Below are positions 1-62,258 of a DNA stretch of 64,000 bases, one piece after another. The position numbers and the translations under genes were made by a program. Source of the stretch: Eledone cirrhosa (lineage: Eukaryota); NCBI GenBank assembly GCA_964016885.1, contig OZ024742.1, forward strand, positions 318,556,001-318,620,000, written 5' to 3'. Position 1 is the stretch's first letter; every line of letters begins with the position of its first letter. The notes below the pieces were generated by a model that was not told the origin of the DNA, ran no database searches, and worked only from the letters and a program-made list of their open reading frames with translations.

Positions 1-160
1 TGTACACAATATTTCATTATTGTTATTGTTATTATATCATGACTCATACACTGTTCATTTTCCTGACATTTGTACATTATTCTATGTACTATACATGCAC
101 CTTTGATGAGTTGTAGTGCACCTGAGCACTGTACACAATAATTTCATTATTATTATTATA
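1..160 (+). mobile_element. 3' end (partly duplicated) of a CR1-group LINE with (ATT)n tail
   Basis: tgcacctgagcactgtacacaataatttcattattattatt also occurs at ~22085-22135, where it follows a CR1-type ORF2 C-terminus (TWNKLPASV...FK), and inverted at 14744-14790. Confidence 0.65.
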
Positions 161-1240
161 GATTTTATTTCTAGCCAATGCTCAGGTGCAATAAGTAGCA
201 AGTGCCCACAGGATACTATCTCCTTCTATTGCCCAGATGGTTCTATAGAAATAGTAGACACTTTCCGTTACCTGGGTGACGAAATCAGCAGTGGTGGAGG
301 GTGTTCTGAAAGTACAGTAGCCAGAGTCAAAACGGGATGGAAAAATTTCAGAGAGCTTATACCACTATTGACAACTAAAGGTTTCTCTCTAAAAATGAAA
401 GGCAGATTATATGATGCCTGTATACGAACAGCAATGTTACATGGCAGTGAGACATGGGCTTTGTATGCAGAGGATCTGCGCAGACTGGAGAGGAACGAAG
501 CATCCATGCTCCATTGGATGTGTAATAGTAATATACGTGAAGAGCAAAGCATAAATGAACTAAGTGAGAAATTAGGAATAAGAGGGATCAGATGCTGTTT
601 ACTCGAAAGAAGACTACATTGGTATGGTCACGTGATGCGCATGAAAGACGACAGTTGTATAAAAAAGTGCAGGGCGATCAAAATTGATGGAAGTTACGGA
701 GTAGGTAGACTCAGAAAAACCTGGGATGATTTGATAAATTCCGACCTCACACACTTACATCTCTCTAAGACAATGTCACTGGACTGAGAGCTTTGGCGCT
801 ACGCTGTAATACAGAAGACACGCCTTGCCTATGTACAAAGCGAAACCTACAGTCAGTCGGCACCTCTTAACCAAATATACACCCCATCCCACTACCCATA
901 CTCTACTCCATCCCCACTCCCACCAACATCACCCTTTCTCTGTAAAGTTATGTTGGTACCACAACATCCAGTCCAAAATAAATGAGGTCGTGTAGGTGTC
1001 ACAACAAAAAAACACAGTCCACACTGTAATGTGGCCGTGTAGGTAACACGGTAAAAACCTCCCAGTTCCACACTGTAAACGTGGTTGGTGTTAGGATGGG
1101 CATCCAGCCATAGAAAACCTGCCAGACAGCCCTATACGAGTGAGACATGGTCACCCGACCAATCTTGCCTCAAGTAGGACAATTCCCGGCTAAACCCATG
1201 CTAGCGTGGAAGATAAACGTTGATAATGATGATGATGATA
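161..1240 (+). mobile_element. 5'-truncated RTE LINE, copy 1 (RT C-terminus, long 3' UTR, (GAT)n tail)
   Basis: ORF 116-787 has [22 protein letters not shown] and RLHWYGHVMR; premature TGA at 785-787; tail gatgatgatgat runs into (TA)n; collinear with 2417-3513. Confidence 0.92.
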
Positions 1241-1264
1241 TATATATATATATACCTAACCCTA

Positions 1265-3513
1265 ACCGTGATATTGTCGGGGAGAAGTGTATCCGTAATG
1301 ATAATGGTGTACTTGCGCTCACTGATACTGATAAGAAGATAGCCTGGAAGTGTCACTACGAGAGACTATTAAATGAGCAGAATAAATGAGAAAAAAATAG
1401 TCTGCCCCAAATCGATCCAATAGAAGGACCAGCGGTGCAAGTTAAAGGTAGTATAATAAGTAAAGCAATCAAAGATATGAAGACAGGCAAGGCAGCTGGG
1501 CCTTCGGAGATAGTTGCTGAGATGTTGAAGGCATCTGGTATGGTGGGACACACTATGGTCACCCGTATAGTTAACCAAGTAATACAGAATGGGGTTATAC
1601 CGAAAGACTGGCGTAGCAGCAGCATCATTAACTGCTACAAGGGTAAAGGGGATACTCTAGATAGGGGAAACTATAGAGGCATTAAGTTAGTTGACCAGGT
1701 CATGAAGGTCACAGAAAGAGTTATAGCGCAACTAATCAGAGAGCGAATTGATCTAGATGAAATGCAGTTCGGGTTTGTGTCAGGTAAAAGTACCACAGAC
1801 GCTCTTTTCCTTGTACGACAACTACAAGAGAAGTACCTAGCTAAAAGTAAACCCCTCTACTTAGCTTTTGTAGACCTGGAGAAAGCTTTTGACAGAGTCC
1901 CCCGTTCCATTATCTGGTGGGCTCTTAGAAAACTAGGTGTAGATGAATGGCTTGTGAGAGCTATACAAGCTATGTATAATGAAACAGTCAGTAAGGTTAA
2001 TAATGAATATTGTGAAGAATTTAGTGTAAAAGTTGGCGTTCATCAAGGCTCTGTCCTTAGCCCCCTCTTATTTATTATTGCCCTTCAGGCTATAACAGAG
2101 GAGTTCAAGACCGGCTGCCCATGGGAACTCCTATATGCAGATGATCTAACGCTCATAGCTGAATCAATGGCTGAACTAGAAAAGATATTCCAAACATGGA
2201 AGCATGGCCTAGAATCAAAAGGTCTTAAAGTTAACTTGTCTAAGACTAAAGTCCTAGTTTGTAGAAAGGAAAATAAGGCACAGGTACCCTCAGGGAAATG
2301 GCCTTGCTCAGTGTGTAGGAAAGGAGTAGGCAGAAATTCAATTTTATGTCCCAAATGCAAAGTATGGGTACATAAAAGATGTAGTGGGATCACAGGTAAA
2401 CTATCTAAGAAAGTAGACTTTATATGTGGCCGATGCTCAGGTGCAAGAGGTAGCCAGTGTCTACAGGATACTAGCCCCTTCTATTGCCCAGATGGTTCTA
2501 TAGAAATAGTAGACACTTTCCGTTACCTGGGTGACGAAATCAGCAGTGGTGGAGGGTGTTCTGAAAGTACAGTAGCCAGAGTCAGAACGGGATGGAAAAA
2601 GTTCAGAGCTTATACCGCTGTTGGCCACAAAAGGTTTCTCTCTAAAAGTGAAAGGCAGATTGTATGATGCTTGTGTACGAACAGTAATGTTACATGGCAG
2701 TGAGACATGGGCATTATGTGCAGAGGATCTGCGCAGACTGGAGAGGAACGAAGCATCCATGCTCCGTTGGATGTGTAATAGTAATATACGTGAACGGCAA
2801 AGCATAAATGAACTAAGTGAGAAATTAGGAATAAGAGGGATCAGATGCTGTTTACTCGAGAGAAGACTACGTTGGTATGGCCACGTGATGCGCATGAAAG
2901 ACGACAGCTGTAAAAAAAAGTGCAGGGCGATCAAAATTGATGGTAGTTACGGAGTAGGTAGACTCAGAAAAACCTGGGACGATCTGATAAATTCCGACCT
3001 CACACACTTGCACCTCTCTAAGACAATGTCACTGGATCGAGATCTTTGGCGCTACGCAGTAATATAGAAGACCTGCTTTGCCTATGTACAAAGCGAAACC
3101 TACAGTCAGTAGGCACCTCTTAACCAAATATACACCCCAATCCACTACCCCTACCCTATCCTCCCACTAACACCACCCCTTCTCTATAAAGTTGGTACCA
3201 CAATATCCAGTCCAAATAAATGAGATAAATGAGATCGAGATCGAGATCGTGTAGGTGTCACGAGAAAAAAACACACAGTCCACGCTGTAATGTGGCCGTG
3301 TATGTAACACGGTAAAAACCTCCCAGTTCCACACTGTAAATGTGGTTGGTGTTAGGAAGAGTATCCAGCCGTAGAAAACCTGCCAGATAGTCCTATATGA
3401 GCGAGACACGGTCACCCGACCAACCTTGCCTCAAGTGGGACAACTCCCGTCTAACAAATGCTAGCGTGGAGAGTGGACGTGAAACGAGGATGATGATGAT
3501 GATGATGATGATG
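1265..3513 (+). mobile_element. 5'-truncated RTE LINE, copy 2 (complete RT domain with internal PHD-like finger; frameshifted)
   Basis: KAAGPS, NYRGIKL, QFGF, FVDLEKAFD, GVHQGSVLSPLLF, YADD, YLG; stop at 1387-1389 and a 2-nt deletion near 2605 split ORFs 1435-2667 and 2621-3067; ends in (GAT)n then (TA)n. Confidence 0.95.
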
Positions 3514-5333: not shown

Positions 5334-5357
<24 letters not shown>

Positions 5358-5364
<7 letters not shown>

Positions 5365-5591
5365 AGATCAAAAGATGGTTAAAAGAGTTCCAAGTATTTT
5401 ATTATGCGCATTTCAAAAATAAATATCATCATGGGATGATATCTGCGTTCTCATCAGATAAAATAGGGAGACATGATATGAAGCTTAAAAAACACTTGTG
5501 AGCATCATGTCATCCCATGATGATATTTGTTTTTGAAATGCGCATAATAAAATACTTGGAACTCTTTTAACCATCTTTTGATCTTATATTA
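5358..5591. repeat. 82-bp inverted repeat (one mismatch, 70-bp spacer) next to (TA)n; Penelope pLTR-like
   Basis: 5358-5439 is the reverse complement of 5510-5591; the left arm overlaps a hammerhead motif. Confidence 0.9.
5395..5465 (-). ncRNA. Type I hammerhead ribozyme motif (minimal, palindromic stem III)
   Basis: Minus strand reads UAUUUUAU-CUGAUGA-[gaacgcagauaucauc ccau gaugauauuuauuuuu]-GAAA-UGCGCA-UA-AUAAAAUA: perfect 8-bp stem I, full catalytic core, long stem II, AUA cleavage triplet. Confidence 0.8.
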
Positions 5592-5766
5592 TTTATACTC
5601 CAGTCCTACAAACTATAGAGTGCTACTTATCCGATATTTGCATTGCTTTATTGTGCTACAATAAAACTCACCTCCTACATATATATATATATATATGTGT
5701 AGGAGGTGAGTTTTATATATTATGGAATACTGTTAGCTTCTTGCTACAATAATTTCTATGCTTTTC

Positions 5767-5830
<64 letters not shown>

Positions 5831-5868
5831 GATATTAACAAATGGAAACTATATTTATAAAACCATAT

Positions 5869-5936
5869 TTATTTCATTATACATATTTCAAGGACACCAA
5901 GTTAAATTATGGTGTGCTTTCATCAGATAAAAATAA
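5869..5936 (-). ncRNA. Second type I hammerhead ribozyme motif (different sequence family)
   Basis: Minus strand reads UUAUUUUUAU-CUGAUGA-[aagcacacca uaauuuaacu ugguguccuu]-GAAA-UAUGUA-UA-AUGAAAUAA; stem II 9 of 10 paired. Confidence 0.72.
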
Positions 5937-6108
5937 TATAGAGCAGTTTTATAAATAAATATTGACATACCCTTAAAGAATGCAACCATTACTGTTGGAA
6001 GCTCCCGTATTTTTACTCCAATTATTTGTTGAGTGCTTTATATCAGTTATAAAAATATTTGCTTGTTGTATCCCAACAATTTAAATAGAACTTTTACATA
6101 TATATATA

Positions 6109-6246
6109 TATATATCATAAAACATGTCTATAGAATCACAAGATAAAATATATACTATTTCCTCTCCCAATTAGCATAATCAAATTGGGAGAGGAAATAG
6201 TATATATTTTATCTTGTGATTCTATAGACATGTTTTATGATATATA
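6109..6246. repeat. Perfect 64-bp-arm palindrome with 10-nt loop, starting in (TA)n
   Basis: 6109-6172 is the exact reverse complement of 6183-6246; loop agcataatca. Confidence 0.95.
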
Positions 6247-6340
6247 GCTCTGGTTGTTTAATTTATTAATTTTTCATTGAGCCACAAAGTGACCAGTTGC
6301 AAAACACGTATATGTATGTGTATGTATATATATATGTAAA

Positions 6341-6396
<56 letters not shown>

Positions 6397-8679
6397 AAGT
6401 GTTAAAAACAAACAGACAAAATTTACTTAATTTTTCCTCTTAGCTCAGAAAGAATTAACTATATAAGGAATTAATCTGAGCTAAATACAATTATAAGTGT
6501 GAAGAAAAAACAGATAAAATATATGCTGATCACTTGTAAATCTTGCCAGCTTCCCTTGAGGAGGGCGAGGGCTATACCTACGAAACGAATATTTAATACT
6601 AGCAATTTCTCCATTCCAGTATTTTATTATAGTAATCTAGGCTAGACACCTTCATAGCAGAAGTCAATGTGGCGGCGATTCTCTTCGATTGTTGAGATTA
6701 CTTCTAAAGGGATCGCAACAAACAAGAGTTTCTAAAATCTTGTGAAAAAATGTTGTCACTTGACTTTCAACCATTTCGCATGGATAGGGTTGCATATAAT
6801 CAACTTATTACAACTAAAGGAATAATTCGGAAACTGTCCTTCACAAACGAACTGTTATTTCTCTCACATTGGTCACACGTTGGCAAAAAATTATGACACA
6901 TTTCTTTTGAACAATAGCTCTTTTATTTATCAGAACTGTTTTTCAAATTGATTTCAGCTTAAATTATCATTATTATTATTAGCCTCTGTTAAATTAAATC
7001 GACACATTTTCCCTCAAGTGCCAATGATGAATATTTCTAAAACTCTTCTCTGTCGTTTGGGAAACTCGCGACTTCATAAGAATTTTGCCTTATTTACCTC
7101 TTTGGCGACACACTACCGATCTTTAGAGACATTTCACAATTCTTGCTGGCATTCTGTGAGTAAAATAATGACTTTTGAGTTTTTATATTCTTTCAAATAC
7201 ACACACATCAAGCATAATTATATATGATGGTTACATTTTATCACGTTCTATTTATACGGTGCCTTACGAAGGAAAAAAAAAGAACGTTTTCAATAGATTT
7301 TGGAAATGTATTTTGCTCTGTACACAAATCACTAGGTACTCCAGAAACGAAATTTAATGGAAACATACAAAATATTTTAAAAAATAATAAAAACATATAT
7401 ATATATATTCAATTAGAGTTAGTTGATTTAGAATCAACCGACTTTTATATAACAGATGTCAAGTACTCAACGGTATATGTTTATCCGGAGTATTGTTATA
7501 ATAATAATAAACAAAAAAAAAAAAGTTACTTTAGTCCATCCTATTATATGTATATATATCACCGCTAATCAGATTTTCACATTCCGGTTTTTACTTCCAC
7601 CCATCATCAGCCTTGTTTTTCACATTTAAATTATTTCCTTATGTAATAATTTCAAACGCCGCATAGACACTTTAGACCCATAATGCTTATTTTAATAGCA
7701 TATTATGTGTATGTGTGATTTTATTTTTAATAAATGTTATGTTGTTTTAACATAAGCGTTTTTGTCAAGTTCATCAGTCTTCAAGGGCATTCTGTAAAAT
7801 ATCTTAGTTTCACTACGAGGTCATATTAAACAATTCTATTTAATATTCTAAATATCAAAACTCTCACACATGGGCAACTGCATCAAGTGTCCCATTGTTG
7901 GGGAACCTTTCCTTGCGACTTTGATTTTTATCCTGTTTCTCAGTATATAAAAGTTATATGTTTCCTTGTTGAGGGGCACTACAACGAAATTGGCTGTCAG
8001 AAGCGAAAGTATGTATCTAAGCAGAGGTCATTAACTAATAGTATTGAATGTTATAACCACTAGCTTCTTCATATTTCTGGCCAAAGCAGTTCACACTACC
8101 TCAGCCGTCCAGAATACTTGCCGGATTATCTTTTCTCATTCAGACCAGTGACCACCAGTATCTAGATGGACAGTGTATAGTAGATGTGGTCCAATGACCA
8201 TAAAATGTATCGTGCGCCTAACTTCCTGGATCACGCTGGATCCATTCTATACCTTCATTCTGTATATAAGAAGAAAGTCTTAGGTGTCAGACTTAATCCA
8301 TCGACCTGTTTAACACCAGCATCTGATCCTTAGGTCCCTTTAGTGAAGTCCAGTCTGCTGCAAGCATTCGGACCAAGTCTCCGGTTTGGGGATAACTTCC
8401 TCATTCCCAACACTCTCAGAGACCCGAAAAAGAGCCAAGGGCACTATTCATAACTAAACAATAAAAAATGCCAAACCAGAAGATTATTATTCTCTCTGAT
8501 AATCCACTAATTGACAGATCGTCAGAGAGAATGCATTGCAGTATTTGTTCTAGCTTACTCATAGTCTGAGATCAAAATTCAATCCTTCCCAGGTCGACTT
8601 TGCTTTTCATTTTTTTTTTAGACAATATAAATGGTACCAGTCCCAGCCCTGTACTGGTGCAGCTTTTTCTCCCTCTATC

Positions 8680-17444: not shown

Positions 17445-17695
17445 TAAACCCTTTGATATTAAAGCATCTGAAACCACTCCTGGTTTTACAAATCAAAGCT
17501 ATTTATTTTAAAGTGTATATATTTATCTAAAACCTTTTCACCATAATTTTATGTGAGAACCTTTGTTCAGCTATGCTCCAAACACCAGCTTAGTAATGAG
17601 AAAGACAGTTATATTACTGTATTTTGAATGTTTAAAAAATAATTTGGAAATTATAAGCAATGTTTTTCATTAGAAATATGGTAAAAAAATGTTTA
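17445..17695 (+). mobile_element. piggyBac-like MITE family 2 (TTAA|CCCTTTTGATACCAAA ... TAACAAAAGGG|TTAA consensus)
   Basis: Related copies near 9740-9967, 19138-19470, 20655-20880, 39115-39364, 39565-39800, 43942-44166, 45755-46010, 50313-50560, 51470-51713 and 54592-54759. Confidence 0.7.
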
Positions 17696-17722
17696 AACAC
17701 ACTTTCTTTTGTATTTTCCCAG

Positions 17723-18177
17723 GTGCCTGGTTACTCGGTGCAATCATGTATGCTTGGCAGTTTCCTCACTTCAATGCTCTCAGCTGGAACCTTCGTGCAG
17801 ACTATTCACGTGGTGGCTATTGTATGTCATCTGTAATGAACCCCAGCCTATGCCGACGAGTTGCCTTTCGTTACTGTGTAGCAACAACGGTCTTCAGCAT
17901 TTTGGCACCATTTGCAGGACTGACCACTTGGATGTTTGTCGTTGATTCTCTGCCCTTGAATCTATATCTCACCTACCTAGGCTGGAGATTCTATAAAGAA
18001 GGTGATAGCAAAAGCTCTCGGAATCTTTTCCGTTTCACTCTACTACACCTGCCCGTCTTATTCACATTGATGTTATTAAGCAAAAAACCAAGTCGACCAA
18101 AAACTGATGAAATCACTCTTAGTTCTATCATTTCAGATGTGACTGATGTATGCAACTCAGATGCTTTGTACCTATAA
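17723..18177 (+). CDS. COX10: COX10 last coding exon
   Basis: ttttcccag|GT GCC; [25 protein letters not shown] (catalytic His motif), [14 protein letters not shown]; stop TAA at 18175-18177. Confidence 0.96.
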
Positions 18178-22630: not shown

Positions 22631-23833
22631 TCATACTTTTTTCTTCGTTATCTTCGCAGCCTTCACGTTCTTACGACCAGTTGGACAGAGTTCCTTATTA
22701 AGACACCCACCACATGCCGGGTTGATGGGTCTGCAAAGCTGTTGGCCAAAACCAACCAACAAATGGTTTACTTCTTTCCAATATTCTCGAGGTAGCCAGT
22801 CTTCGAGGAATTTGCGAGTTTTTTCGGGTTCTTTTGTTGGTGTCGGGACCCAGCCCAGTCTGTTAGAAATGCGGTGAACATGCGTATCCACACCAATTCC
22901 TGTTAGTTTATCCCACGCACATTTCATAATCAAGTGAGCCATTTTGGGACCGATACCGGGTAACTGGAGCAAACCTTCAAGAGAGTCAGGAATATCACCG
23001 TGATATTTCTCTTTCAGAATACGTGTTGTTTTTTTTATATACTCGACCTTCCTCTTCCAAAAGCCCACGGGATAAATTAGTTTACCCAGTTTTTCGTCTG
23101 TGGTTGCCAAGATGTTGTCAATGTTGCAACCGTGCTCTCTCAGCCGCATCATTGCTGCAGATGTGACCTCGTCTTTAGTTTGGCTGGACAGCATCAGCGA
23201 TAGCAGGACCTGATATCGGAATATTTCGGGTACCGAAGTGCGATCAGATATCGTATCGCACCCCATACTGTCAACTGGTGCGTCTTGATGCTTGCGCATC
23301 TCTCGAATGTTATTCAAAACTAATAGCCACCCTTCAGGTTCCCATTTGCTTCGTTTGTTTTCCAGTTTTATATCAGTTTGCTCGACTTTTTTCGTCGCGA
23401 AATACGGCGATATAGTTTGAACGCTAATATTATTTTCAAGCTCACCTTCCGTTTCATATTTAATCGTTATTTTCGATCTTCGCTTACCAACTCGGGAAGG
23501 GTTAAGGCTGCCAGGCAGTCCTTGTTGATTAGCTGAGTCGCTTTTGTGAGTTGAATTTCTTTCAACCTTTTCTTTGCTGTTTATAAGTTCCGTGTATGTG
23601 GTATTTTCTGTTTTGATATTAGTTACATAATTATCAACACGTGGTGGTATTTTATGACTAACTTTCAAGTCGTCATAATCGTCAGGTTTTCTACTCAAGG
23701 AACGAGTTTGACGTCGGTTGTCATTGGAAATTGAGTGACCTTTCGAAATATGGAGCATTATTAGCAGGTGTGAACAATAATTTGATCGTGCTGAAAAAAT
23801 ATACCGAGAAATGTTTATAACATTTAGAGACAT
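22631..23833 (-). CDS. NTHL1: Endonuclease III-like protein 1 (HhH-GPD DNA glycosylase/AP lyase), single-exon ORF
   Basis: DAPVDSMGC, RYQVLLSLMLSSQTKD, LIYPVGFW, HhH LPGIGPKMA (catalytic K), VDTHVHRISNRLGW (catalytic D), 4Fe-4S motif C-x6-C-x2-C-x5-C; uninterrupted 400 codons. The true start could be Met1 or Met26. Confidence 0.96.
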   Translation of the reverse strand: MSLNVINISRYIFSARSNYCSHLLIMLHISKGHSISNDNRRQTRSLSRKPDDYDDLKVSHKIPPRVDNYVTNIKTENTTYTELINSKEKVERNSTHKSDSANQQGLPGSLNPSRVGKRRSKITIKYETEGELENNISVQTISPYFATKKVEQTDIKLENKRSKWEPEGWLLVLNNIREMRKHQDAPVDSMGCDTISDRTSVPEIFRYQVLLSLMLSSQTKDEVTSAAMMRLREHGCNIDNILATTDEKLGKLIYPVGFWKRKVEYIKKTTRILKEKYHGDIPDSLEGLLQLPGIGPKMAHLIMKCAWDKLTGIGVDTHVHRISNRLGWVPTPTKEPEKTRKFLEDWLPREYWKEVNHLLVGFGQQLCRPINPACGGCLNKELCPTGRKNVKAAKITKKKV

Positions 23834-24312
23834 GAATAGACAACGAAGGGCAGATAACTCTCAACTCTCGATAGATGATTTTCTTCTTATTCCCCCCTCT
23901 CCAAACTTTTATAGTTTGTTTCAAGGAAAATTTCGTGTACAATTTAGACTCTCCCGCGCGAGGCAGCCAAAGTACTTCAATGACCACGGTTAGTTGCGTT
24001 TATAAATACATCATTCCAACATTTGTTGATGGGTTTCAGGTCTCTGTCAATTTTCTGCCACTGGTTCATCGTGGGACATCCGCTTTGCCTCTTTCCATGG
24101 GGTTACTAATCAAGGCCACATTTAATTTGAGGGCAAAGATGGTAATTACCCTGGGCCCACCACCGACGGCCGTAGCAATTTGTTTGTGGCCTCATCTGAG
24201 CTTTTTAGTTTTAGGATAGTTAGAATTTTTGAATTTAATACCTGTATGTCTAAGTTTGCATTCCAATTACTTACAACAAGCTAACTTTGATATGTAAAGG
24301 GGGGGGGGGGGG

Positions 24313-42130: not shown

Positions 42131-43899
42131 ATTATGAGAGACTGATGAATGTGGAGAACGAATGGGAGAGAGAGAAATTACCCTCAGTAGATCCGACAGA
42201 GGGACTAGCTATTGAGATTGACGAATATAGGGTCCAAGAGGCAATTAAGGAAATGAAAAATGGTAAGGCTGCTGGACCATCGGGGATAGTTACTGAGATG
42301 CTGAAGGCATCAGGGGATGTAGGCACTAAACTGGTTACATGCATCATCAATCAGGCTATATATGGTGGTGTCATACCCAAAGACTGGTGCAGCAGTATTG
42401 GTGAGCAATTATAGGGGTATATATGGTGAGCAATTATAGGGGTATAAAACTGATGGATCAGGTTATGAAAGTGACAGAAAGGATATTAGCGCAACTAATT
42501 AGAGAAAGGGTCAAACTAGATGAGATGCAGTTTGGTTTTGTGTCTGGGAAAAGTACAACAGGTGCCCTCTTCTTGGTGAGACACATACAAGAGAGGTTCT
42601 TAGAGAAGAATAAGCCACTATACTTAGCTTTTGTTGACCTAGAGAAGGCCTTTGATAGGGTACCCCGATCTGTCCACTGGTGGTCCCTAAGGGAACTAGG
42701 TGTTGAGGAATGGCTTGTGAGGACAGTGCAAACTTTGTACAGATGTGCTGTCAGTAAAGTGAGGGTAGGAATGGAGTTTAGTAGGGAATTCCAGATACAA
42801 GTAGGAGTACATCAGGGTTCGGTCCTCAGCCTGCTCTTGTTCATTATAGTCCTCCAAGCCATAACAGAGGAGTTTAAGACTGGCTGTCCATGGGAACATC
42901 TCTATGCTGACGATCTGGTTCTTATAGCAGAATCAGTAGAGGAGCTAGTGAATAAATTCTGGCTATGGAAACAGCAGTTGGAATCAAGAGGACTGAGAGT
43001 GAACCTAGCTAAGACAAAAGTGTTGTTGAGTAGAAAAGAGGACAAAACTCTGATTCTGTCAGGGAAATGGCCATGTTCGATATGCAGAAAAGGAACTGGC
43101 ATAAATTCTATAAAATGTACACAATGCAGATCTTGGGTACACAAGAGATGTAGTGGAATAGCAGGCAAACTAACAGGTAGGGAGAAATACGTATGCAGTA
43201 GATGTACAGGGAAATTTGACAGTAGAAGTCGCATTGATAGACACATTTTTCAAATGCAGGTGAGTTCTATAGAAGTGGTTGATAGCTTCATGTACCTAGG
43301 TGATCAGATTAGCATGGGAGGGGTGTGTTCCGAGGCCATAGTATCTAGAATAAGGATGGGTTGAAGAAGTTTAGGGAGCTGCTTCCTCTGCTGACGAAGA
43401 AGGGTTTCTCCCTGTGTACGAAAGGCCAGTTATATGGCACCTGTGTGAGGAGCGCAATGCTGCATGGTAGTGAGACACGGACAGCAACTGCAGAGGATAT
43501 GCGACGGCTGGAGAGAAATGAGGCAAACATGCTCTGTTGGATGTGCAATGTCAATGTGCGTGAACGACCGAGCATGGATGTGTTTAGAGAGAGACTGTGT
43601 CTGAGAAGGATAGATTGTAGTGCGGGAGAGGAGACTGAGATGGCATGGACATGTGATGCGCATGGAGGATGACCGATGGGTGAAGAAGTGCCAAGAAATG
43701 CCAGTTGAAGGAAGACGTAGTAGAGGTAGACCATGAAAAACATGGGCGGAGGTGGTGAGAGCAGACCTCAAGATCACTGAAGCTCACGGTGGAGATGACG
43801 AAGGACCGTGACAAGTGGAGAGATGCTGTGCTGAATAGGACCCGTCCCACCCTTGCAAGCAGGGAAAACTGGACGTAAAATGATGATGATGATGATGAT
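42131..43899 (+). mobile_element. 5'-truncated RTE LINE (PHD-type, short 3' UTR subfamily)
   Basis: ORFs 42145-42414, 42423-43364 and 43361-43672 carry RT motifs (DLEKAFD, GVHQG, YADD, YLG) and a C4HC3 insert; tail cttgcaagcagggaaaactggacgtaaaa(tga)n. Confidence 0.95.
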
Positions 43900-58057: not shown

Positions 58058-59251
58058 ATCACAGGTAAGCTAACTAACAACACAGATTTTACATGTGGCC
58101 GGTGCTCTGGTGCAATAAGTAGCAGCAAGTGCCCACAAAATACTAGCTCTTTCAATTGCGCAGAGGGTTCTATAGAAATAGTGGACTGCTTCCGTTACCT
58201 GGGTGACAAAATCAGCAGTGGGGAAGGGTGCTCTGAAAGTACAGTAGCTAGTCAGAACTGGATGGAAAAAGTTCAGAGAGCTTATACCACTATTAGCCGC
58301 TAAAGGGTTCTCCCTAAAAATGAAAGGCAGGTTGTATGATGCCTGCATACGAACAGCAATGTTGCATGGCAGTGTGACCTGGGCATTGTGTGCAGAGGAT
58401 ATACGCAGATTAGAGAGGAACGAAGCTTGCATGCTCCGCTGGATGTGTAATAGTAATATACGTGAACGGCAAAGCATAAACGAACTAAGGAAAAAATTAG
58501 ATATAAGAGGGATCAGATGTTGTTTACTCGAGAGAAGGCTACGTTGGTATGGTCACGTGATGCGCATGAAAGACGACAGCTGTATAACAAAGTGCAGGGC
58601 AATAAAGATAGATGGTAGCCACGGAGTAGGCAGACCCAGAAAAACCTGGGACGAGCTGATAAATTCCGACCTCACACACTTACACCTCTCCAAGACAATG
58701 TCACTGGACCGAGACCTTTGGCGGTACTCAGTAATAGAGAAGACCCGCCTTACCTAAATACAAAGTAAAACCTACTACAGTCAGTAGGCATCTCTAACAA
58801 AATACACCCCCGTCCCACCACCCCCACCCCATCCACACCGCCCCTTTCAATGTAAAGTTATGTTGGTACCACAACATCCAGGCCGAAACAAATGAGATCG
58901 TGTAGGTGTCACGACAAAAAACACACAGTCCACGCTGTAATGTGGCCGTGTAGGCAACACGGTAAAAACCTCCCAGTCCCACACTGTAAATGTGGTTGGT
59001 GTTAGGAAGGGCATCCAGCTGTAGAAAACCCGCCAGACAGTCCACGCTGTAATGTGGCCGTGTAAGCAACACGGTAAAAACCCCCCAGCCCCACACTGTA
59101 AATGTGGTTGGTGTTAGGAAGGGCATCCAGCTGTAGAAAACCCGCCAGACAGTCCTATGCGAGCAAGACAATCACTCTTGCCTCAAGTGGGAAAACCCCC
59201 GTCCAAACCCATGCAAGCGTGGAACACGGACGTTAAACGATGATGATGATG
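58058..59251 (+). mobile_element. 5'-truncated young RTE copy with a 112-bp duplication in the 3' UTR
   Basis: ORF 58320-58757 is intact to the natural stop; duplication 58927-59038 / 59039-59150; (GAT)n tail; TA-rich tracts on both sides. Confidence 0.95.
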
Positions 59252-59254
59252 ATA

Positions 59255-59309
<55 letters not shown>

Positions 59310-59381
59310 ATATATATATGTATATGTATGTATATATATATATGTATATGTGTATATATATATGTGTATATATATGTGTAT

Positions 59382-59382
<1 letters not shown>

Positions 59383-59415
<33 letters not shown>

Positions 59416-60387
59416 GGTTTAGCGTCCGTGTTCCACGCTTGCATGGGTTTGGACGGGGGTTTTCCCACTTGAGGCAAGAGTGGTTGTCTTGCTCGCATAG
59501 GACTGTCTGGCGGGTTTTCTACAGTTGGATGCCCTTCCTAACACCAACCACATTTACAGTGTGGGGCTGGGAGGTTTTTACCGTGTTGCCTACACGGCCA
59601 CATTACAGCGTGGACTGTCTGGCGGGTTTTCTACAGCTGGATGCCCTTCCTAACACCAACCACATTTACAGTGTGGGGCTGGGAGGTTTTTACCGTGTGG
59701 CCTACACGGCCACATTTACAGCGTGGACTGTGTGTTTTTTGTCGTGACACCTACACGATCTCATTTGTTTCGGCCTGGATGTTGTGGGACCAACATAACT
59801 TTACATTGAAAGGGGCGGTGTGGGTGGGGTGGAGGTGGTGGGACGGGGGTGTGTTTTGATAGAGATGCCTACTGACTGTAGTAGGTTTTTACTTTGTATT
59901 TAGGTAAGGCGGGTCTTCTCTATTACTGAGTACCGCCAAAGGTCTCGGTCCAGTGACATTGTCTTGGAGAGGTGTAAGCGTGTGAGGTCGGAATTTATCA
60001 GCTCGTCCCATGTTTTTCTGGGTCTGCCTACTCCGTGGCTACCGTCTATCTTTATTGCCCTGCACTTTGTTATACAGCTGTCGTCTTTCATGCGCATCAC
60101 GTGACCGTACCAACGTAGCCTTCTCTCGAGTAAACAACATCTGATCCCTCTTATTTCTAATTTTTTCCTTAGTTCGTTTATGCTTTGCCGTTCACGTATA
60201 TTACTATTGCACATCCAGCGGAGCATGCAAGCTTCGTTCCTCTCTAGTCTGCGTATATCCTCTGCACACAATGCCCAGGTCTCACTGCCATGCAGCATTG
60301 CTGTTCGTATGCAGGCATCGTATAACCTGCCTTTCATTTTTAGGGAGAACCCTCTAGCGGCTAATAGTGGTATAAGCTCTCTGAACT
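59383..60387 (-). mobile_element. Second, inverted young RTE copy, near-identical to 58271-59251
   Basis: ORF 59900-60337 differs from ORF 58320-58757 at only three residues; carries the same 3'-UTR duplication. Confidence 0.95.

Positions 60388-62258
<1,871 letters not shown>

What the first reader, a model, noticed from the sequence alone, without database searches (positions are those of the whole stretch)
5335..6400. Cluster of small non-coding, (TA)n-embedded foldback elements carrying hammerhead ribozymes
Seen: about 1 kb alternates (TA)n with 150-330 bp unique modules. One has an 82-bp inverted repeat overlapping a complete type I hammerhead, one has a second unrelated hammerhead on the same strand, and one is a perfect 64-bp palindrome. 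None has coding capacity. Established: Penelope-like elements carry minimal type I hammerheads with palindromic stem III in their pLTRs and leave inverted-repeat ends; retrozymes are non-autonomous hammerhead retroelements. Inference: several distinct non-autonomous ribozyme retroelement families target TA arrays here, possibly an uncatalogued retrozyme-like system in this lineage.
Basis: partly seen in the sequence, partly recalled or inferred. Interest (0 to 1): 0.75.

Follow-up and report, generated by a model that had tools for sequence, protein, structure and literature searches.

The report
Stacked Penelope ends in TA repeat
This kilobase is a pile of five short leftovers of jumping genes in one TA repeat: two ribozyme-bearing ends (plus a scrap) of protein-coding Penelope-type retrotransposons and two pieces of non-coding ribozyme repeats, whose ends all sit just before the same small hairpin motif, which likely tells the copying enzyme where to start.

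Summary
Both hammerhead modules (M1, M2) are 5'-truncated ends (pLTRs) of two autonomous Hydra-clade Penelope-like elements. Longer copies run through a 3'UTR into an RT plus GIY-YIG-type ORF, full-length copies read HHR-ORF-HHR, and the two ORFs are 52% identical, so the hammerheads are related. Fold-backs are the known Penelope inverted-arm-plus-tail footprint. Not found in print: back-to-back arms used one short and one long fixed end in 42 of 43 classifiable pairs, and all seven mapped ends fit a start 7 nt before a bulged NCTC...GAGN hairpin shared by coding and non-coding families. That is a likely reverse-transcription start signal and a testable link between Penelope enzymes and retrozymes. 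Cleavage, expression and mechanism are untested. This scan already noted the same footprint and hairpin on other DNA.

The parts
5334..5359 (.). (TA)n target array, left
5360..5501 (-). M1 short-ended arm: 5'-truncated pLTR of Hydra-clade PLE family 1, from -43 to the fixed short end (about +100 to +106 from the hammerhead core)
   Evidence: 97% identical to pLTR of long copy L183; long copies reach the ORF
5395..5465 (-). Hammerhead 1, type I: 8-bp stem I, CUGAUGA core 5457-5451, long stem II, GAAA-UGCGCA-UA, predicted cut after 5403; predicted to be sequestered by the inverted arm in a transcript of the whole module
   Evidence: cleavage untested
5507..5678 (+). M1 long-ended arm (+16 to +189): overlaps the other arm (makes the 83-bp inverted repeat) and carries the about 85-nt tail
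   Evidence: 98% identical to L183; end classes
5597..5624 (+). Bulged hairpin motif ACTC...TA-GAGT-GCT just after the M1 short end
   Evidence: role inferred
5680..5695 (.). (TA)n
5698..5716 (-). 19-nt scrap of the M1 long end, a separate mini-arm
   Evidence: 19 of 19 identical to ref +170..+188; similar scraps in L011, L062
5713..5769 (+). M4: last about 53-57 nt of a non-coding tandem repeat of about 630 nt; the family's hammerhead lies 324 nt upstream of this end and is absent here
5770..5829 (.). (TA)30
5830..6010 (-). M2 short-ended arm: 5'-truncated pLTR of Hydra-clade PLE family 2 (-84 to +100)
   Evidence: 98% identical to L199; ORF link
5870..5934 (-). Hammerhead 2, type I: CUGAUGA core 5926-5920, 10-bp stem II with one mismatch, GAAA-UAUGUA-UA, predicted cut after 5878
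   Evidence: cleavage untested
6006..6098 (+). M2 long-ended arm = the 93-nt tail alone (+96 to +193), abutting the other arm with a 5-nt overlap
6015..6037 (+). Bulged hairpin motif ACTC...TT-GAGT-GCT just after the M2 short end
   Evidence: role inferred
6099..6114 (.). (TA)n
6109..6183 (-). M3 short-ended arm (+206 to +280 from the family's predicted cut site) of a 658-nt non-coding tandem hammerhead repeat; no hammerhead in this copy
6181..6344 (+). M3 long-ended arm (+215 to +388); overlap with the other arm makes the 64-bp perfect inverted repeat
6247..6282 (+). Bulged hairpin motif GCTC...TT-GAGC just after the M3 short end
   Evidence: role inferred
6345..6392 (.). (TA)n, right

Best explanation
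The cluster is five truncated insertions in one (TA)n array: ends of two protein-coding Hydra-clade Penelope-like retrotransposons (M1 with a separate scrap, and M2) and of two non-coding hammerhead repeats (M3, M4), all likely written in by Hydra-type RT-endonuclease. Shown: family membership, the ORF link, two fixed ends per family (one seen for M4), one long plus one short end per back-to-back pair, and a hairpin motif after each end. Inferred: the endonuclease nicks both strands of a TA array. Two RT active sites (probably a dimer) each start 7 nt 5' of a bulged NCTC...GAGN hairpin on RNA that spans the pLTR-ORF junction, helped by a few bases of TA complementarity. One strand uses the first hairpin and the other the second, so the stretch between them is the one-sided tail. 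Both cDNAs run upstream through the uncut or re-ligated hammerhead, usually stop early and are joined at variable points, which gives the fold-backs. M3 and M4 would be passengers that mimic the hairpin. New TA flanks stay targets, so insertions pile up. The window copies lack ORF and promoter and are probably dead.
For: Upstream continuation into a CT-rich 3'UTR in 20 of 30 M1 and 20 of 30 M2 loci picked by a 5' motif. RT (YRDD) plus C-terminal GIY-YIG-type ORF upstream of M1 in L137, L139, L140 and of M2 in L138, L141. HHR-ORF-HHR copies with periods 3692, 3864 and 3707 nt (L176-L178, sister subfamily 88% identical to M1), and L181/L183 98-99% identical to M1; M2 tail runs into the ORF start in L195, L199, L201-L203. 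Hydra diagnostics RWx, DKT, CxCx5C and CxxC-E-N-CxH are present (against PMC8557442 section 11). The predicted fold's best PDB matches are telomerase RTs. M3 tandem periods 660/658/658 with longest stop-free frame 48 aa; M4 runs head-to-tail. Pairs: 42 long+short, 1 short+short, 0 long+long, 3 with an unclassified end, 1 dropped for low coverage, from 127 loci; p=5e-12 against 50%. Hairpin motif: 4 matches in the 3692-nt M1 unit and 3 in the 4240-nt M2 unit, two of each directly after the two ends; allowed start intervals of all 7 mapped ends share only the value 7 nt. In vitro precedent for two internal starts, a tail and cutting of both strands: PMC11167929.
Against: No cleavage, expression or enzyme data. 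M4 has a second hairpin 91 nt after the first, but 0 of 53 mapped M4 ends lay before it, so a hairpin is not sufficient. The hairpins fold no better than shuffles (z +0.5 to -2.4 for the 6 correctly framed of 9 folded). TA microhomology blurs each end by 2-8 nt, so the 7-nt value is an intersection of intervals; M1 and M2 are homologous, so the seven ends are not independent. M3 and M4 show no BLAST similarity to the M1/M2 units, so which PLE moves them is not shown. In vitro the anole element showed no strand difference in start site. Pfam gave no RT or GIY-YIG hit for the ORF; clade assignment rests on motifs and by-eye comparison, not on a tree with published Hydra sequences.
Confidence: 0.8

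Rival explanations
1. All modules are non-autonomous retrozyme-like or fold-back elements of their own.
For: No coding capacity in the window; M3 and M4 families are non-coding tandem units with hammerheads.
Against: M1 and M2 link to ORFs. A tail-to-5' junction pattern gave 1 hit for M1, a template switch rather than a tandem, and 0 for M2. No same-strand neighbours within 1.5 kb among the first 100 listed motif hits for M1 or M2, unlike M3. Inner junctions differ in every copy.
Confidence: 0.07
2. The two fixed ends come from plain base-pairing of nicked (TA)n to TA-like patches in the RNA (L1-style twin priming); the hairpins have another job, such as protein binding, promoter or translation control.
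For: Each end carries 2-8 nt of TA-like microhomology. M4's second hairpin lacks an upstream TA patch and shows no end. In the window's M2 and several others the tail arm starts near the short end, as one-RNA twin priming predicts.
Against: The AT-rich units hold many other TA patches that are not used; ends cluster at two sites only. The anole element starts at a site not homologous to the cut DNA.
Confidence: 0.25
3. Inverted arms arise after one normal insertion, by hairpin fold-back or endonuclease resolution of a DNA intermediate, not by two RT starts.
For: Craig et al. attribute the tail to endonuclease-mediated resolution; arms often duplicate the same stretch.
Against: Arms often cover different, barely overlapping parts (M2 here; L082, L083, L086), which a fold-back of one cDNA does not give; tail ends match RT starts in vitro.
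Confidence: 0.1

Closest known systems
Hydra clade of Penelope-like elements, including Hydra-1_Obim (Craig et al. 2021, PMC8557442; section 11, passages and supplement parts read)
   Same: Single ORF with RT then C-terminal GIY-YIG-type domain; RWx, DKT, CxCx5C, CxxC and CxH motifs; hammerhead in the pLTR; (TA)n target; partial tandems, inverted 5'-truncated copies, one-sided tail.
   Different: Unit 3.7-4.2 kb (published mostly <3 kb); tail 85-93 nt (published 30-40 for PLEs); the hammerheads differ from the one listed for Hydra-1_Obim and use AUA, U15.2-A16.2 and a non-G-C base of stem II. So these are other families.
Poseidon of Anolis carolinensis, PAc (Frangieh et al. 2024, PMC11167929; parts 1-2 of 4 read)
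   Same: Two internal RT starts downstream of the hammerhead define the tail; both target strands cut and extended; AT-rich target; stem-loop at the start; predicted dimer.
   Different: Other clade; PAc starts lie inside the ORF, here 45-170 nt before the ATG; no strand preference seen in vitro, whereas genomic pairs here use one start each; no shared hairpin motif or passenger RNAs described.
Animal non-LTR retrozymes (Cervera and de la Pena 2020, PMC7229834, part 2 of 6 read; Li et al. 2026 preprint 10.64898/2026.07.22.740005, part 1 of 5 and passages)
   Same: M3 and M4 families: non-coding tandem units, one type I hammerhead per unit, proposed PLE passengers.
   Different: Units of 658 and about 630 nt exceed the 150-450 bp quoted; mostly dispersed truncated copies in (TA)n with the PLE end footprint; circular RNA and cleavage untested; no sequence similarity to the two Hydra pLTRs beyond the hairpin motif.
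Minimal PLE hammerheads (Cervera and de la Pena 2014, PMC4209133; passages)
   Same: Type I, palindromic stem III predicted to work as a dimer (8-bp dimer helix, -12.5 and -4.2 kcal/mol).
   Different: The G10.1-C11.1 pair called highly conserved there is G-U (HH1) or A-U (HH2); stem II has an invariant C mismatch at its fourth pair.

Membership tests
Hydra-clade PLE (M1, M2) | Single ORF, RT followed by C-terminal GIY-YIG-type endonuclease | tested here: met
   Open frames of 821 codons (family 1) and 743 (family 2) with YRDD and a YxCxV...YxGST domain; fold closest to telomerase RT. Pfam silent.
Hydra-clade PLE (M1, M2) | RWK motif and DKT in place of DKG | tested here: met
   DKT in both; RW followed by T/I/R/H in these families, RWK in 10 of 12 aligned homologues.
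Hydra-clade PLE (M1, M2) | CxCx5C linker; CxxC and CxH around E and N; no CCHH | tested here: met
   CNCRIKNKC and CNCRNKSNC; CNLC-E-N-CLH and CDLC-E-N-CRH.
Hydra-clade PLE (M1, M2) | Hammerhead in pLTRs, partial tandem, (TA)n target | tested here: met
   HHR-ORF-HHR in L176-L178; TA flanks.
Hydra-clade PLE (M1, M2) | Placement in the Hydra clade of an RT phylogeny | not tested
   Published Hydra proteins were seen in the supplement and compared by eye only.
Neptune / Nematis / Poseidon PLE | CCHH motif in the endonuclease and DKG motif | tested here: not met
   DKT and the Hydra-type cysteine pattern instead.
Non-LTR retrozyme (M1, M2) | Non-coding short tandem unit | tested here: not met
   Units are 3.7-4.2 kb and coding.
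Non-LTR retrozyme (M3, M4 families) | Non-coding tandem unit with one type I hammerhead | tested here: met
   M3: 658-nt period, at least four units in L236, longest stop-free frame 48 aa. M4: head-to-tail run-on in 9 of 30 loci, about 630 nt, longest frame 84 aa on the antisense strand.
Non-LTR retrozyme (M3, M4 families) | Self-cleavage and circular RNA | not testable with these tools
   Needs bench assay or RNA reads.
Type I hammerhead ribozyme | Core CUGANGA, GAAA, UH with three stems and covariation | tested here: met
   Core invariant in 16 hand-picked variants; stem II 82% paired against 36-59% for slid controls; two-sided changes in stems II and III, only one-sided in stem I. Variants were pre-selected for pairing.
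Type I hammerhead ribozyme | Match to an Rfam hammerhead model | tested here: not met
   No hit in the window stretch at E<=10 or in 4 family loci at the gathering score.
Type I hammerhead ribozyme | Self-cleavage | not testable with these tools
   Atypical base pairs next to the core make activity uncertain.

The most novel reading that the evidence does not exclude
A bulged NCTC...GAGN hairpin, present twice per unit, is a 7-nt ruler for Penelope reverse transcription. A dimeric enzyme assigns one hairpin to each target strand, and unrelated retrozymes hitchhike by mimicking the hairpin alone. At the boldest, the M1-scrap/M4 junction at 5698-5769 (repeated in L062) is a single event that copied a PLE RNA from one nick and a retrozyme RNA from the other.
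Probability: 0.4. Interest if true: 0.7.

Novelty: new member of a known kind. Interest (0 to 1): 0.42.

Why it matters
As a locus it is ordinary debris of very abundant retroelements. Its value is that autonomous Penelope-like elements and non-coding retrozymes show one footprint side by side. How PLEs pick their internal RT start, why tail and inverted arm go together, and whether PLE enzymes move animal retrozymes are open questions. Intact 800-aa ORFs, two mapped starts and a short shared hairpin make all three testable with the published in vitro assay. It also warns that short hammerhead fold-backs in TA arrays are easily mis-annotated as miRNA precursors or retrozymes.

Tried and rejected
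1) My first idea that M1 and M2 have a fixed 5' end and are short non-autonomous circles: an artefact of best-hit selection, overturned by motif-picked loci. 2) Tail-to-head junction patterns: 1 hit for M1, not a tandem; 0 for M2; only gaps up to 30 and 60 nt were tested. 3) Neptune assignment from memory: dropped after reading the Hydra definition. 4) Rfam: only sub-threshold miRNA matches from the fold-backs, no hammerhead. 5) Pfam and PDB sequence searches of the ORF: nothing useful; the protein atlas gave no result. 6) Prediction of a second M4 end before its second hairpin: not seen in 53 ends. 7) Hairpin stability: not above shuffles; 3 of 9 folded windows were mis-framed. 8) First pair count (32 vs 2) had faulty de-duplication and edge effects; replaced. 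9) RNA: no RNA holder listed among 6 runs, which says nothing on expression. 10) Whether other individuals have an empty TA site here remains open; no data were obtained. 11) Chimeric M1/M4 pair: seen in 2 of 47 M4 end regions, but lone M4 53-mers and lone M1 scraps also occur, so two adjacent insertions explain it as well.

Full report
OBSERVATION. The region alternates five (TA)n runs with unique DNA. The two inverted repeats are as described. A descriptor scan found exactly two type I hammerhead motifs in the 64 kb, both on the minus strand (cores 5457 and 5926), and none in 30 Markov shuffles. Rfam did not detect them. The window lies in a 3.0-Gb genome; I did not establish the species.

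COPY NUMBER. Each module is a dispersed repeat. First-look candidates were 1023 (M1), 1119 (M2), 2001 (M3) and 956 (M4), 40 scored each; these are not copy numbers. Exact-motif counts were 280, 965, 294 and 61. Copies sit in (TA)n and have copy-specific inner junctions.

M1 AND M2 ARE ENDS OF AUTONOMOUS ELEMENTS. Best hits first suggested a fixed 5' end. Loci picked by a 5' motif overturned this: 20 of 30 M1 and 20 of 30 M2 loci run on into a pyrimidine-rich 3'UTR. Of seven long stretches fetched, five reach an RT plus GIY-YIG-type ORF (L137, L139, L140 for M1; L138, L141 for M2). A protein search scored 147 of 41,507 candidates, all 89-100% identical to the M1-family RT. L176-L178 read hammerhead-ORF-hammerhead with periods of 3692, 3864 and 3707 nt; they are a sister subfamily, 88% identical to the window's hammerhead arm. 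L181 and L183 have the same layout with broken ORFs and are 98-99% identical to the window. For M2 the tail runs into the ORF start in L195, L199 and L201-L203. The two ORFs are 52% identical and 33-38% identical to 12 unnamed homologues. So the two hammerheads are relatives.

CLADE. The proteins have RWx, DKT, YRDD, CxCx5C and CxxC-E-N-CxH, the features that define the Hydra clade, which targets (TA)n and carries hammerheads (PMC8557442 section 11). The supplement lists Hydra-1_Obim with a different hammerhead; its protein resembles ours by eye. An AlphaFold model (mean pLDDT 78) matches telomerase RTs best (E 3e-8). Pfam found nothing. No tree was built.

M3 AND M4 ARE RETROZYME-LIKE. The palindrome's family is a 658-nt tandem unit (periods 660, 658, 658 in L236), non-coding, with its own hammerhead. 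The window copy spans +206 to +388 from the predicted cut and lacks it. The 53-nt piece at 5713-5769 is the end of a second tandem unit of about 630 nt whose hammerhead lies 324 nt upstream. Neither resembles the M1/M2 units by BLAST. Both fit animal non-LTR retrozymes in anatomy; cleavage and circles are untested.

HAMMERHEADS. In 16 variants (14 chosen from the 87 rows, 2) the core is invariant. Stem II is 82% paired against 36-59% when slid and 61% across sequences, with two-sided changes. Stem III stays palindromic in 16 of 16. Stem I shows one-sided changes only. The set was pre-selected for pairing. The pairs next to the core are atypical (G-U or A-U at the base of stem II, U-A at 15.2-16.2, AUA triplet). 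Stem III is predicted to form an 8-bp dimer helix, and a transcript of the whole M1 module is predicted to fold into a long hairpin that traps most of HH1.

INSERTION FOOTPRINT. 3' ends fall at two sites per family: about +100/106 and +189/193 from the core in M1 and M2, +280 and +388 from the cut in M3. In 127 loci, back-to-back pairs were 42 long+short, 1 short+short (with a TA run inside), 0 long+long; 3 had an unclassified end and 1 was dropped for low coverage. All three two-armed modules of the window follow this rule. Inverted arms and a one-sided tail are known for PLEs. In vitro, an anole PLE extends both target strands from two internal starts that bound the tail, and hammerhead cleavage is not needed. 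The tails here are longer (85-108 nt).

HAIRPIN. Each of seven mapped ends (two each for M1-M3, one for M4) is followed by NCTC-stem-loop-stem-T(T/A)-GAGN with N complementary. The motif occurs 4 times in 3692 nt (M1 unit) and 3 times in 4240 nt (M2 unit), twice in each directly after the ends. Allowed start intervals, as nt before the stem and using the commonest stop of each end, are 4-12, 6-8, 4-7, 3-9, 0-7, 7-12 and 4-9; only 7 fits all. Against: the hairpins are weak, M1 and M2 are not independent, and M4's second hairpin has no end in 53 mapped.

MECHANISM. See Best explanation. Shown: families, ORF link, ends, pairing rule, motif position. From known PLE biochemistry: nicking of both strands, internal starts, tail. 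Inferred: the hairpin as ruler, one start per strand in a dimer, mobilisation of M3/M4 by Hydra enzymes, pile-up in TA arrays. Copies cross the hammerhead cut site and exceed unit length, so the template is uncut, tandem or circular RNA; the data do not tell which.

NOVELTY. The elements are new members of two known kinds. Seven searches of the held library showed no paper on the long+short rule or the shared hairpin; subscription journals and Repbase/Dfam were not covered. This scan's earlier notes report the two-end footprint (read before my count) and the same hairpin and Hydra link (read after I had found them) on other DNA; they are not independent support.

Noticed in passing
window 22631-23860 (-): Uninterrupted 409-codon frame with HhH-GPD and HHH domains; looks like an intronless endonuclease III (NTHL1-type) gene or retrocopy; the name is recalled.
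   Followed up: partly
window 17674-18177 (+): Exon-like frame matching UbiA prenyltransferase, likely COX10 (name recalled); the HhH-GPD frame lies about 4.5 kb away on the other strand.
   Followed up: partly
window 110-3067, 42405-43364, 58070-60385: Pieces of a LINE with RT and a PHD finger.
   Followed up: no
window 58925-59757: Two 112-nt-period repeats in opposite orientation around an (AT)n/(ATC)n stretch; similar 47-49-nt units at 981, 8679, 27613 and 40674.
   Followed up: no
L007, L008, L010, L137: A SINE-like repeat sits at AATAATT sites inside M1 copies, three times at the same tail position and in both arms of L137 at the same 3'UTR site with different lengths: a possible site preference.
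   Followed up: no
L006, L008, L036, L038, L046, L056, L062, L067, L069: At least six further hammerhead families lie in the same TA clusters as the queried ones; TA arrays here are shared landing sites.
   Followed up: partly
window 5698-5769; L062 about 1490-1595: An M1 long-end scrap joined back-to-back to an M4 end over a 4-nt overlap, in two unrelated loci: a mixed-template event or two adjacent insertions.
   Followed up: partly
A2 column 23: Invariant unpaired C at the fourth position of stem II in 16 of 16 hammerhead variants; a candidate tertiary contact.
   Followed up: no
L066 about 1237; L242: The M4-family hammerhead has an unusually long palindromic stem III (about 15 nt) that could fold as a monomer.
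   Followed up: no
window 60387-62258: 1.9-kb degenerate (TATG/TA)n array with extreme GC skew.
   Followed up: no
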